Below, in pieces: positions 48,513-49,755 of a stretch of 64,000 nucleotides of DNA (within the stretch, counting starts at the first letter, position 1; each line of letters begins with the position of its first letter). The translations under genes and the position numbers were made by a program. This DNA is from the human T2T-CHM13v2.0 reference genome, Homo sapiens, in assembly GCA_009914755.4 (NCBI GenBank), contig CP086569.2, forward strand, positions 896,001 to 960,000, in the 5' to 3' direction. The notes beneath the pieces are model-generated. The model made no database searches. It was not told the origin of the DNA and was given only the letters and a program-made list of their open reading frames with translations.

Positions 48513-49755
48513 TGAGATGGAGTCTCGCTCTGTCACTGGGCTAAAGTGCAACGGCGTGATCTCTGCTCACCGCAACCTCCTCCTCCCGGGTTCAAGTGAT
48601 TCTCCTGCCTCAGCCTCCTGAGTAGCTGGGATTACAGGCGTCCACCACCACGCCTGGCTAATTTTTGTATTTCTAGTACAGACAGGGTTTCACTATGTTG
48701 GCCAGGCTGGTCTCGAACGCCTCACCTCATGATCCATCTGCCTCAGATTCCCAAAGTGCTGGGATTACACGCGTGAGCCACCAGGCCCAGCCAAAAAATG
48801 TACACAGATTTTTTTTTTTTTTTTGAGACAGAGTCTCTCTCTGTCGCCCAGGCTGAAGTGCAGTGGCCCAATCTCGGCTCACTGCAAGCTCCACCTCCTG
48901 GGTTCACGCCATTCTCCTGCCTCAGCCTCCCAAGTAACTGGGACTACAGGCACCCGCTACCACGCCCGGCTAATTTTTTTGTATTTTTAGTAGAGATGGG
49001 GTTGCACTATGTTGGCCAGGCTGGTCTCGAACGCCTCACCTCATGATCCGTCTGCCTCAGATTCCCAAAGTGCTGGGATTACATGTGTGAGCCACCGGGC
49101 CCAGCCAAAAAATGTACACAATTTTTTTTTTTTTTTTGAGACGGAGTCTTTCTCTGTCGCCCAGGCTGGAGTGCAGTGGCACGATCTCAGCTCACTGCAA
49201 GCTCCACCTCCTGGGTTCACGCCATTCTCCTGCCTCAGCTTCCCGAGTAACTGGGACTACAGGCACCTGCTACCACGCCCAGCTAATTATTTTGTATTTT
49301 TAGTAGAGATGGGGTTGCACTATGTTGGCCAGGCTGGTCTCGAACTCCTCACCTCATGATCCGTCTGCCTCAGACTCCCAAAGTGCTGGGATTACAGGCA
49401 TGAGCCACTGCACCTGGCCAAAGAATGTGCACACTTTCTTTCTTTTTTTTTTTTTTTTGAGACAGAGTCTCGTTCTGTTGCCCAGGCTGGAGTGCAGTGG
49501 CACGATCTCGGCTCACTGCAAGCTCCGCCTTCCGGGTTCACGCCATTCTCCTGCCTCAGCCTCCCGAGTAGCTGGGACTACAGGCGCCCGCCACCACGCC
49601 CGGCTAATTTTTTGTATTTTTAGTAGAGACGGGGTTTCACCGTGTTAGCCAGGATGGTCTCGATCTCCTGACCGTGTGATCCACCTGCCTCACCCTCCCA
49701 AAGTGCTGGGATTCCAGGCATGAGCCACCGCACCTGGCCAAAGAATGTACACACT
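48513..49755 (-). repeat. Four tandem copies (period about 315 bp) of [antisense Alu + spacer aaaaaatgtacaca..tttt]; the Alu copy is AluY-like in the later units
   Basis: ccagccaaaaaatgtacacagattttttttttttttttgagacagagtctctctctgtcgcccaggc (48786), ...aaaaaatgtacacaatttttt (49107), ...aaagaatgtgcacactttctttc (49422), ...aaagaatgtacacacttttt (49741). Confidence 0.85.

What the first reader, a model, noticed from the sequence alone, without database searches (positions are those of the whole stretch)
48513..49755. Four-unit tandem array of [Alu + tgtacaca spacer] with signs of gene conversion toward AluY
Period is about 315 bp and each unit ends with the same short non-Alu spacer (aaaaaatgtacaca...), so the repeat unit is Alu plus flank rather than independent insertions. 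The right arm of the last unit matches the AluY consensus almost perfectly, while the left ends of the units differ from each other in blocks, suggesting exchange or conversion among copies.
Basis: seen in the sequence. Interest (0 to 1): 0.5.

Follow-up and report, generated by a model that had tools for sequence, protein, structure and literature searches.

The report
Four-Alu tandem array from unequal recombination
Four head-to-tail Alu repeats separated by the same 15-20 bp spacer are what is left of an AluY that landed next to an older AluS and then misaligned and recombined with it twice, which is a clean but ordinary example of how Alu repeats duplicate primate DNA.

Summary
Window 48452-49759 carries four minus-strand Alu units. 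Spacer-to-spacer distances are 314, 313 and 320 bp, and TRF gives period 313, 4.0 copies, score 1739. Each unit is preceded, in Alu sense, by the same spacer, AAAAAGTGTGTACATTCTTT (17-20 of 20 matches). Its 13-nt core occurs four times here, nowhere else in 64 kb, and never in shuffles.

The units are not independent insertions. U1, U2 and U3 share substitutions (46T, 56A, 70G) that none of 43 other Alus in the window carries.

The array is a mosaic:
- U1 is AluS.
- U4 is a whole AluY flanked by an 18-20 bp target-site duplication at an L1-endonuclease-type site. That duplication is the spacer.
- U2 and U3 are chimeras of AluS 5' and AluY 3', with the breakpoint at Alu positions 100-126.

Best history: AluY inserted beside AluS, then two unequal Alu-Alu crossovers, plus one short (about 65 bp) gene-conversion-like transfer of spacer and Alu head from U4 to U3.

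"Conversion toward AluY" is not needed, because the Y sequence comes from a resident AluY.

This is a known kind of structure and of low interest. Copy-number polymorphism and orthologues could not be tested.

The parts
48452..48513 (-). U1 tail: a long degenerate A-rich tail of the AluS, with (CAA)n-type interruptions. It is unlike the A16 tails of the other three units.
   Evidence: Sequence reading. In sense it reads AAAAACAAACACACAAACAATAAACCAACACAACAACAACAACAACAAAAAACCCCAAAAAA, followed by the unique flank CTGATACCTTGACC.
48514..48792 (-). U1 body: a full-length AluS (AluSg-like left arm, S-type right arm). It is the 3'-most unit in Alu sense.
   Evidence: BLAST to consensus gives AluSx 336 bits against AluY 293. 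S-type diagnostic states run along the whole element. Minus-strand Metazoa_SRP match, E 4e-11.
48793..48808 (-). Spacer 1 (+ strand AAAAAATGTACACAGA), a copy of the AluY 3' target-site duplication.
   Evidence: It matches the U4 5' TSD at 17 of 20 positions.
48809..48824 (-). U2 tail, a pure A16 run (T16 on +).
48825..49106 (-). U2 body: a chimeric Alu. Alu positions 1-99 are AluS-type and carry U1's private mutations. Positions from about 127 to the end are AluY-type.
   Evidence: AluY 357 bits against AluSx 354, nearly equal. Site patterns. Max chi-square breakpoint between positions 99 and 109, 0/5000 permutations.
48981..49007 (-). Interval holding the S-to-Y junction in U2 (Alu positions 100-126, around the A-rich linker).
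   Evidence: The last S-type or private-S state is at position 99. The first Y-diagnostic state is the extra A at position 127.
49107..49121 (-). Spacer 2 (+ strand AAAAAATGTACACAA).
   Evidence: It matches the U4 5' TSD at 18 of 20 positions.
49122..49137 (-). U3 tail, a pure A16 run.
49138..49419 (-). U3 body: a three-block chimera. Positions 1-45 are U4-like. Positions 46-99 are AluS-type and shared with U1 and U2. Positions from about 103 to the end are AluY-type and share 8-9 private mutations with U2.
   Evidence: Breakpoint between positions 45 and 46 at 1/5000 permutations, and between 99 and 109.
49294..49320 (-). Interval holding the S-to-Y junction in U3 (Alu positions 100-126). It is the same junction as in U2, inherited by duplication.
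49375..49439 (-). Putative gene-conversion tract in U3: the spacer plus Alu positions 1-45, matching U4 and not U1 or U2.
   Evidence: There are 7 substitution sites with the pattern U4=U3 versus U2=U1, plus the spacer states. The joint background frequency of 5A+8T+20T is about 0.025, seen in 1 of 43 other Alus. U1, U2 and U3 share no derived state in positions 1-45.
49420..49439 (-). Spacer 3, the 3' copy of the AluY (U4) target-site duplication. In sense it reads AGAAAGTGTGCACATTCTTT.
   Evidence: It matches the 5' copy at 49740-49759 at 18 of 20 positions.
49440..49458 (-). U4 tail: A16 followed by GAA. It runs into the A-rich start of the 3' TSD.
49459..49739 (-). U4 body: a full-length AluY. 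It is the 5'-most unit in Alu sense and carries none of the array's AluS-type private mutations.
   Evidence: AluY 431 bits against AluSx 383, 94.0% identity. It has 15 differences from the Y consensus, 10 in positions 1-120 and 5 in positions 121-281.
49740..49759 (-). Spacer 4, the 5' target-site duplication of U4 (sense AAAAAGTGTGTACATTCTTT). In sense it is preceded by CCCT, so the bottom-strand site reads TTTTT/AG, an L1-endonuclease-type site.

Best explanation
This is a locally generated tandem array of Alu elements with no indication of function. It is a record of retrotransposition followed by unequal homologous recombination. In Alu sense (minus strand) the order is U4-U3-U2-U1.

1. 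An AluS (U1) was already present.
2. An AluY (U4) retrotransposed immediately 5' of it by L1-mediated target-primed reverse transcription. This created an 18-20 bp target-site duplication, AAAAAGTGTGTACATTCTTT. That duplication is the 'spacer'.
3. The two adjacent Alus, in the same orientation and about 313 bp out of register, misaligned and recombined in or near the A-rich linker (Alu positions 100-126). The result was a third unit whose 5' part is AluS and whose 3' part, A16 tail and spacer are AluY-derived.
4. After roughly 5% further divergence, a second unequal exchange 5' of position 103 duplicated the hybrid, giving U3 and U2.
5. A short non-reciprocal transfer (gene conversion or a patchy or double exchange, at least about 65 bp) copied U4's spacer and Alu positions 1-45 onto U3.

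What is shown directly: the four homologous spacers, the chimeric structure, the breakpoints, the shared rare mutations, and the TSD and endonuclease site around U4.

What is inferred: the order and number of events, the molecular pathway (meiotic NAHR versus replicative template switching or MMEJ), and the dates. Using non-CpG differences and my own assumed rate of about 1e-9 per site per year, the AluY insertion and first crossover fall at about 20-30 Myr and the second crossover at about 10 Myr, with very wide error.
For: - **Spacer.** It occurs 4 times in register, 0 times elsewhere and 0 times in shuffles. All copies align at 17-20 of 20 positions.
- **Local duplication.** U1, U2 and U3 share 46T, 56A and 70G (0/43 other Alus) and 99A (2/43). 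Identity over positions 46-99 is 96-98%, against a background of 80% and a best outsider of 84-86%.
- **U2 and U3 right arms.** They share 103C and 169T (0/43), 148A (1/43) and 268A (3/43). Their right-arm identity of 93.9% exceeds all 903 background pairs.
- **Chimerism.** U2 is U1-like to position 99 and Y-like from position 109 (max chi-square 38.3, 0/5000). U3 switches at position 45|46 (1/5000).
- **Tails.** The hybrid units carry the A16 tail type of the AluY, not the long degenerate tail of the AluS. Only the crossover model predicts this.
- **U4 insertion hallmarks.** It is flanked by an 18/20 direct repeat that abuts the Alu 5' end and the tail exactly, with CCCT|AAAAAG upstream.
- **The U3 head needs a non-crossover exchange.** In any duplication-type unequal crossover the junction unit takes its 5' part from the downstream unit, so a U4-type head on U3 cannot arise while U4 is kept intact (inference). 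The chance alternative needs three parallel CpG decays (about 0.025) and an unmutated AluS head.
- **Literature.** Alu/Alu-mediated rearrangements leave a full-length chimeric Alu at the junction (PMC6071635). Alu-derived tandem repeats are common in the human genome (PMC3389668).
Against: - **Relative rate.** In the right arm (positions 121-281), U4 has 5 private differences from the consensus while the U2 and U3 lineages have 12-14, although the model has them separating at the same time. By my own hand calculation from these counts, not a tool result, p is about 0.02-0.04, post hoc.
- **No U4-specific link.** No mutation is shared by U4, U3 and U2 against the Y consensus, and U2's right arm is as close to an unrelated AluY at 22818-23098 (92.2%) as to U4 (91.1%). 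Descent of the Y-type arms from U4 specifically is therefore parsimonious but not demonstrated.
- **Tails.** Three tails of exactly A16 after this much body divergence are unexpected.
- **AluS flank.** No TSD could be recognised for the AluS.
- **Consensus sequences.** One region had to be corrected from the window's own AluY copies. Subfamily labels below the S/Y level are approximate.
- **Missing data.** No orthologous or population sequences were available, and two metagenome scans found nothing.
Confidence: 0.8

Rival explanations
1. Later-insertion model. An older AluY-type element and the AluS produced a three-unit array (U3-U2-U1) by one crossover, plus a conversion of positions 46-99 in U3. 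U4 is a younger, independent AluY that re-used the same endonuclease site, so spacers 3 and 4 are its TSD pair.
For: - It explains why U4's right arm is less diverged (5 differences against 12-14) and shares no private mutation with the U2 and U3 right arms.
- It explains the spacer pattern (spacer 4 = spacer 3, spacer 2 = spacer 1) without converting the spacer.
- The event count is the same as in the best model.
Against: - The second-strand nick of the new insertion would have to fall exactly at the 5' end of U3, so that both TSD copies abut an Alu head.
- The three shared CpG-decay states in the U3 and U4 heads would have to be coincidence, at about 0.025.
- The A16 tail of U4 would have to equal the other two by chance.
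- U4's left arm is 8.3% diverged, which is not young.
Confidence: 0.1
2. A single [Alu + spacer] unit was amplified four-fold, and copies were then progressively gene-converted toward AluY by an outside AluY donor.
For: - There are four spacers for four Alus.
- U4's right arm is 97% identical to the AluY consensus.
- The units have a block structure.
Against: - U4 keeps none of the private AluS-type mutations (46T, 56A, 70G, 99A) that mark U1-U3, so the whole element including its tail would have to have been replaced.
- U2-U4 carry A16 tails while U1 has a long degenerate tail, so the unit that was copied was not U1's.
- U4 has insertion hallmarks of its own, a TSD and an endonuclease site.
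- The model needs at least two long conversion tracts from an unseen donor, where a resident AluY explains everything.
Confidence: 0.06
3. Four independent Alu retrotranspositions into the same hot spot, each regenerating the same TSD (tandem insertion).
For: - The 5' TSD preserves the endonuclease site, so re-use of the site is possible. This rests on my own knowledge of tandem Alu insertions, not on a test here.
- The window is about one third Alu.
Against: - Shared substitutions that occur in 0/43 other Alus link U1, U2 and U3 over positions 46-99, and link U2 and U3 over the right arm.
- U2 and U3 are S-left/Y-right chimeras that, as far as I recall (not tested here), match no standard subfamily.
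- There are four spacers for four Alus, where nested TSDs would give five.
Confidence: 0.02
4. Assembly artefact: a mis-assembled or artificially expanded Alu cluster.
For: Tandem Alus are hard to assemble, as noted in PMC7215508 and PMC6071635. The three T16 runs are identical.
Against: The units differ from one another by 7-19% in a phylogenetically coherent block pattern. Artefactual duplication would give near-identical copies.
Confidence: 0.02

Closest known systems
Alu/Alu-mediated rearrangement (AAMR, Alu recombination-mediated duplication or deletion) leaving a chimeric Alu at the junction (PMC6071635)
   Same: Two Alus in the same orientation act as substrates. The junction is a full-length hybrid Alu, here AluS 5' and AluY 3'. 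The duplicated segment is bounded by the two Alus.
   Different: The substrates here are immediately adjacent, only a 15-20 bp spacer apart, so the duplicated segment is just one Alu plus the spacer. The product is a short tandem array, not a kilobase-scale CNV. Two rounds of exchange plus a conversion tract are recorded in one place.
TE-derived tandem repeats or minisatellites in the human genome (Ahmed and Liang 2012, PMC3389668; Jurka and Gentles 2006, cited there)
   Same: Both are tandem repeats whose unit is Alu sequence, generated in situ by slippage or unequal crossing-over and not by transposition. Most such repeats have 2-3 units, and a minority have more than 3.
   Different: Most described cases repeat a fragment of one Alu. 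Here the unit is a whole Alu plus tail plus TSD, and the array was seeded by two different subfamilies.
Tandemly arranged Alu repeats in genes, e.g. CSNK2A1 (Wirkner et al. 1994, Genomics 19:257, seen only as a reference in PMC2896393)
   Same: Both are head-to-tail runs of Alu elements.
   Different: I could not read that paper, so whether those Alus are independent insertions or duplication products is unknown to me. The locus here is unidentified.
Alu gene conversion (short-tract, non-reciprocal exchange between Alu copies; e.g. bioRxiv 10.1101/241356, PMC3672193)
   Same: The U3 spacer and head block (at least about 65 bp) matches its neighbour U4, against the phylogeny of the rest of the element.
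   Different: The donor is the adjacent array unit, not a dispersed Alu, and the tract includes non-Alu spacer sequence.

Membership tests
Alu SINE (7SL-derived dimeric element) | About 280-bp dimer of 7SL-related monomers joined by an A-rich linker, ending in a poly(A) tail | tested here: met
   All four units align end to end (query positions 1-281/282) with Alu consensus sequences at 87-94% identity. All have minus-strand Metazoa_SRP matches at E 1e-11 to 1e-14, below the gathering score as expected for Alu. All have A-rich tails.
AluY subfamily (U4) | Y-type states at the S/Y diagnostic positions in both arms (64-65 deletion, 76A, 86T, 93T, 98C, extra A at 127, 153G, 162G, 196G, 199G, 218C) | tested here: met
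   U4 carries the Y state at every one of these positions. AluY scores 431 bits against 383 for AluSx. Diagnostic positions are from memory and were cross-checked against the window's own AluY copies.
AluS subfamily (U1) | S-type states at the same diagnostic positions in both arms | tested here: met
   U1 has 76T, 86G, 93C, 98T, no extra A at 127, 162A, 196C, 199T and 218G. Its left arm has the CACGAGG-type 2-bp deletion (AluSg-like). The finer subfamily label is approximate.
L1-mediated (TPRT) insertion, for U4 | Direct target-site duplication of 7-20 bp immediately flanking the 5' end and the poly(A) tail, with an A-rich start of the TSD at a TTTT/A-type nick site | tested here: met
   The 5' copy AAAAAGTGTGTACATTCTTT (49740-49759) matches the 3' copy AGAAAGTGTGCACATTCTTT (49420-49439) at 18 of 20 positions. 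The upstream context CCCT|AAAAAG corresponds to bottom-strand TTTTT/AG.
L1-mediated (TPRT) insertion, for U1 | A recognisable TSD flanking the element | tested here: not met
   Local alignment of the 3' flank (CTGATACCTTGACC...) with the sequence 5' of the array found only a 10-nt A-rich match that is not at the boundary. The TSD is either decayed or lost.
Alu/Alu-mediated rearrangement product | A full-length chimeric Alu whose two parts match the two flanking parental Alus, with a single in-register junction | tested here: met
   U2 is U1-like over 27 of 27 informative sites 5' of position 99, bar one. It is U4-like at most sites 3' of position 109, with 0/5000 permutations reaching the observed statistic. 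Element length is unchanged at 282 bp.
Alu/Alu-mediated rearrangement product | The Y-type part derives specifically from the neighbouring AluY, shown by shared private mutations with it | tested here: inconclusive
   No derived state is shared by U4, U3 and U2 against the consensus. U2's right arm is 91.1% identical to U4 and 92.2% identical to an unrelated AluY. This is compatible with a crossover soon after insertion, but it is not proof.
Gene conversion tract | A short internal or terminal block whose phylogeny conflicts with both flanks and that a single crossover cannot explain | tested here: met
   The U3 spacer plus positions 1-45 groups with U4, and the rest of U3 groups with U2 (breakpoint 45|46, 1/5000). 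The chance alternative has a probability of about 0.025. The direction of transfer and the tract ends are inferred.
Polymorphic VNTR or macrosatellite | Copy number varies among individuals | not testable with these tools
   No human or primate genome collection was available. Exact-match scans of metagenome contigs for two locus-specific junctions found nothing.

The most novel reading that the evidence does not exclude
The array is not a fossil. It is a still-exchanging, copy-number-variable Alu 'macrosatellite' in a region unusually prone to unequal exchange. The window holds a 3.9-kb minisatellite 0.9 kb away and several Alu-monomer expansions. Signs of ongoing concerted evolution would be the three identical A16 tails, the U4-to-U3 conversion tract, and possibly a refresh of U4's right arm by conversion from an active AluY.
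Probability: 0.15. Interest if true: 0.3.

Novelty: new member of a known kind. Interest (0 to 1): 0.15.

Why it matters
The locus matters mainly as a worked example. It preserves the whole chain of events: retrotransposition next to an older Alu, then two rounds of unequal Alu-Alu exchange, then a short conversion tract. Parents and products sit side by side, so breakpoints can be read to within about 25 bp.

Arrays like this can seed copy-number variation, and they confuse both repeat annotation (hybrid subfamily calls) and assembly. The locus opens no new question about Alu biology. If it sits in a gene or a regulatory region, which I could not determine, copy-number variation might be worth a look in long-read population data.

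Tried and rejected
1. **TRF periodicity as evidence.** Rejected as sufficient. Other adjacent Alu pairs in the window also score as tandem repeats of about 300 bp, and unrelated Alus are about 79% identical.
2. **Parallel CpG decay as the explanation for the U3/U4 head similarity (a no-conversion model).** I first favoured it because an unrelated Alu at 4931-5212 is 97.8% identical to the U3 head. I then set it aside. The joint frequency of the three states is about 0.025. The model also requires the AluS head to have had no mutations while positions 46-99 had at least 4.
3. **Crossover-only histories for U3.** Rejected by logic. In duplication products the junction unit takes its 5' part from the downstream unit, so a U4-type head cannot be placed on U3 while U4 is kept.
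4. **Uneven divergence of U4's arms as evidence for conversion toward AluY.** Fisher p = 0.064 after correcting my remembered consensus at positions 89 and 96, so it is not compelling.
5. **A TSD for the AluS.** None was found.
6. **Copies of this locus in public metagenome contigs, as human contamination, to look for copy-number variants.** Two exact-pattern scans returned 0 hits.
7. **Identifying the locus from coding sequence.** All ORFs of at least 110 aa are translations of repeats, so I did not spend protein-database searches.
8. **Rfam.** It returned only Alu-type sub-threshold hits (Metazoa_SRP and the Alu-derived mir-1268 and mir-3135 models), which give no evidence of a distinct RNA gene.
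Full report
**What is there**

At the reported coordinates TRF finds a single array, 48505-49759, with period 313, 4.0 copies, 87% matches and score 1739.

On the + strand each unit reads poly-T, then antisense Alu, then a short non-Alu spacer. The Alus are therefore on the minus strand. Rfam confirms this independently: every unit has a minus-strand Metazoa_SRP match at E 1e-11 to 1e-14. These fall below the gathering score, as expected for Alu. The same scan hits the mir-1268 and mir-3135 models, which I know as Alu-derived families.

I call the units U1 to U4 from left to right on the + strand. In Alu sense the order is U4-U3-U2-U1.

| Unit | Tail | Body |
|---|---|---|
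| U1 | 48452-48513 | 48514-48792 |
| U2 | 48809-48824 | 48825-49106 |
| U3 | 49122-49137 | 49138-49419 |
| U4 | 49440-49458 | 49459-49739 |

**Check of the observation**

The spacer core AARAATGTRCACA occurs at 48794, 49108, 49421 and 49741, giving spacings of 314, 313 and 320 bp. It occurs nowhere else in 64 kb on either strand. None of 100 dinucleotide-preserving shuffles contained a single match.

In sense orientation, the sequences immediately 5' of the four Alu heads are:

| Unit | Sequence 5' of the Alu head | Match to U4's copy |
|---|---|---|
| U4 | AAAAAGTGTGTACATTCTTT | reference |
| U3 | AGAAAGTGTGCACATTCTTT | 18/20 |
| U2 | AAAAATTGTGTACATTTTTT | 18/20 |
| U1 | AAAATCTGTGTACATTTTTT | 17/20 |

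There is no fifth copy beyond U1's tail.

**Why periodicity alone is not enough, and what the controls show**

Any two adjacent Alus in the same orientation look like a 300-bp tandem repeat, and TRF reports several such pairs in this window.

I therefore aligned the four units with 43 other full-length Alus from the window and compared identities block by block.

- **Positions 46-99.** U1, U2 and U3 are 96-98% identical to each other. The background mean is 80%, and their best non-array partner reaches only 84-86%.
- **Positions 103-281.** U2 and U3 are 93.9% identical, above all 903 background pairs.

The rare-state counts are more telling.

- U1, U2 and U3 share 46T, 56A and 70G, each found in 0 of 43 other Alus, and 99A, found in 2 of 43.
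- U2 and U3 share 103C and 169T (0/43), 148A (1/43) and 268A (3/43).
- U1 and U2 share 9C and 74C (1/43 each).

These are private mutations inherited by local duplication. They rule out four independent retrotranspositions.

**Mosaic structure**

The site-pattern table falls into three blocks. Patterns are written in the order U4 U3 U2 U1.

- **Spacer plus Alu positions 1-45.** The dominant pattern is AABB, meaning U4=U3 and U2=U1.
- **Positions 46-99.** The dominant pattern is ABBB, at 12 sites. U1-U3 are AluS-type with shared private states, and U4 is AluY-type.
- **Positions 103-281.** The patterns are AAAB at 23 sites (U1 is AluS, the other three AluY-type) and ABBA at 8 sites (derived states shared by U2 and U3 only).

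Maximum chi-square tests place the breakpoints.

- U2 is U1-like to position 99 and U4-like from position 109 (chi-square 38.3, 0/5000 permutations).
- U3 compared with U2 and U4 switches between positions 45 and 46 (1/5000).

So the four units are:

- U1 is a whole AluS.
- U4 is a whole AluY (431 bits against 383 for AluSx, 94% identity).
- U2 is a chimera of AluS 5' and AluY 3'.
- U3 is the same chimera with a U4-type head.

BLAST cannot decide the subfamily of U2 or U3 (357 against 354 bits, and 361 against 359). That is what chimeras should give.

**The spacer is the AluY's target-site duplication**

U4 is flanked by AAAAAGTGTGTACATTCTTT on its 5' side (49740-49759). After its tail comes AGAAAGTGTGCACATTCTTT (49420-49439). 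This is an 18/20 direct repeat that abuts the Alu head on one side and the poly(A) tail on the other.

The sequence upstream of the 5' copy is CCCT|AAAAAG, so the bottom strand reads TTTTT/AG. From established knowledge of target-primed reverse transcription, this is the type of site that the L1 endonuclease nicks.

U4 carries none of the AluS-type private states of U1-U3. It is therefore an ordinary AluY insertion that landed immediately 5' of the AluS.

**How the array formed**

In a duplication-type unequal crossover between misaligned arrays, the new junction unit takes its 5' part from the downstream unit and its 3' part, tail and following spacer from the upstream unit.

Starting from [TSD][AluY][A16][TSD][AluS], a crossover at Alu positions 100-126 gives AluY, then a hybrid (AluS 5' / AluY 3' with an A16 tail), then AluS. 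This predicts the observed hybrids.

It also predicts a detail that the single-unit amplification model does not. U2 and U3 carry pure A16 tails like U4, while U1 keeps a 62-nt degenerate (CAA)n-type tail.

The hybrid then acquired 8-9 substitutions in its right arm. These are the states now shared by U2 and U3. It was then duplicated by a second exchange somewhere 5' of position 103. One site, 74C, shared by U1 and U2 but not U3, suggests the exchange lay between positions 75 and 102.

Since then U2 and U3 have diverged by 6.7% in the right arm. U1 and U2 have diverged by about 5% over the spacer and positions 1-99.

**The conversion tract**

U3's spacer and first 45 Alu positions match U4 and not U1 or U2.

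I first thought this was parallel CpG decay. The three shared Alu states (5A, 8T, 20T) are all CpG transitions, and an unrelated Alu at 4931-5212 is 97.8% identical to the U3 head.

Two things speak against that reading.

- The joint background frequency of the three states is about 0.025, and only 1 of 43 other Alus carries all three.
- Without an exchange, the AluS head would have had no mutations at the time of the first crossover, although the adjacent 54 bp had already accumulated at least four.

No single unequal crossover can put a U4-type head on U3 while leaving U4 intact. A short non-reciprocal transfer of at least about 65 bp from U4 to U3 is therefore the best reading.

Parallel CpG decay does occur here. 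All four units share 48T and 54A, interleaved with sites at which they differ. I therefore hold the conversion at roughly two-to-one odds, not as certain.

**What is not supported**

"Gene conversion toward AluY" is unnecessary. The AluY sequence in the array comes from a resident AluY.

U4's right arm is indeed close to the consensus (5 differences in 161), and its left arm is less so (10 in 120). The contrast is not significant (Fisher p = 0.064). That figure comes after correcting two positions of my remembered AluY consensus (89T, 96C) against the window's own AluY copies.

**Loose ends**

- **Relative rate.** If the three Y-type right arms separated at the first crossover, U4 has accumulated fewer changes (5) than the U2 and U3 lineages (12-14). 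By my own hand calculation from these counts, p is about 0.02-0.04, post hoc. No mutation is shared by all three against the consensus, so descent of the hybrid's right arm from U4 specifically is parsimonious but not proven.
- **The later-insertion rival.** A model in which U4 is a later, independent AluY insertion re-using the same nick site would explain the rate difference. It needs the second-strand nick to fall exactly at U3's 5' end, the head similarity to be chance, and the tail lengths to coincide. I give it about 0.1.
- **Tails.** The three tails are all exactly 16 A, which is odd for mononucleotide runs in units that differ by 6-14%.
- **AluS flank.** No TSD is recognisable for the AluS.

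**Dating**

This is inference using my own assumed rate of about 1e-9 per non-CpG site per year.

| Comparison | Non-CpG changes | Approximate age |
|---|---|---|
| U4 against consensus | 5 in about 230 sites | about 20 Myr |
| U2 against U3 | 3 in about 150 sites | about 10 Myr for the second crossover |

Poisson errors span several-fold in each case.

**Comparison with what is known**

- Alu/Alu-mediated rearrangements that leave a full-length chimeric Alu at the junction are well documented. They may arise by NAHR, MMBIR or MMEJ (PMC6071635).
- Alu-derived tandem repeats generated in situ are common in the human genome. Most have 2-3 units (PMC3389668; review PMC6947457).
- Tandemly arranged Alus have been noted in genes since at least 1994 (Wirkner et al., seen only as a reference in PMC2896393).
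- Recombinant Alu sequences and Alu gene conversion are also established (PMC3672193; bioRxiv 10.1101/241356).

This locus is a new instance of a known kind. Its only distinction is that both parents, both hybrids and a conversion tract are preserved side by side.

**What could not be done**

- No primate genome or population data were available.
- Two exact-match scans of metagenome contigs for locus-specific junctions returned nothing.
- The locus could not be named. All long ORFs are translated repeats.

**Verdict**

The mechanism is well supported in outline (confidence about 0.8) and less so in the order of events. Novelty and interest are low.

Noticed in passing
window 43683-47611 (also 42283-42905): A large minisatellite with a 29/59/147/295-bp hierarchy. 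The 295-bp period has 12.7 copies at 95% match (TRF score 6499), and GC skew is strong (+0.37). It ends about 0.9 kb left of the Alu array. The array's right flank (49755-49804, TTTTTAGGGTTGAG...CATAGG x1.9) resembles the minisatellite unit (..TAGGGTTGTGACCCATAGGG..).
   Followed up: no
window 25028-25590, 25868-26269, 26472-26824, 53234-53806: Arrays with the Alu monomer period (134-135 bp), holding 3-4 copies at 87-92% identity between neighbouring units. A normal Alu dimer would not give this. They look like in-situ expansions of Alu monomers, another sign that this region is prone to unequal exchange.
   Followed up: partly
window 38204-39043: Three minus-strand Alus in a row. The last two are 5'- and 3'-truncated (consensus positions 16-275 and 21-276) and joined directly with no tail or spacer (period 257, 89% match). 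This may be another Alu-Alu duplication product.
   Followed up: partly
window 49903-50185 (+) versus U4 49459-49739 (-): An AluS in the opposite orientation lies 163 bp to the right of U4 and is 83% identical to it. Together they form a closely spaced inverted Alu pair. From my own knowledge, such pairs can form hairpins or dsRNA and are considered unstable.
   Followed up: no
window 9139-12096; 61981-63803; 60584-61380; 31663-32943; 28-896: The window holds many other tandem arrays: a 128/270/405-bp array (score 3532), a 40-bp x45 minisatellite, a GGA/GAG-rich tract, a 1.3-kb AAAAT/AT-rich tract (GC 27%) and a TCTA microsatellite of about 870 bp. Overall it is unusually dense in repeats and has no convincing protein-coding ORF.
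   Followed up: no
window 1367-1514 and 14730-14846 (-): Two Alu fragments reach the Rfam gathering score for Metazoa_SRP (71-72 bits against a cut-off of 70). Both coincide with AluS copies, so they are Alu sequence and not 7SL genes.
   Followed up: partly
window 48809-48824, 49122-49137, 49443-49458: The poly-T runs (A tails) of U2, U3 and U4 are all exactly 16 nt, despite 6-14% divergence of the unit bodies. This may be a hint of tail homogenisation, or it may be chance.
   Followed up: partly
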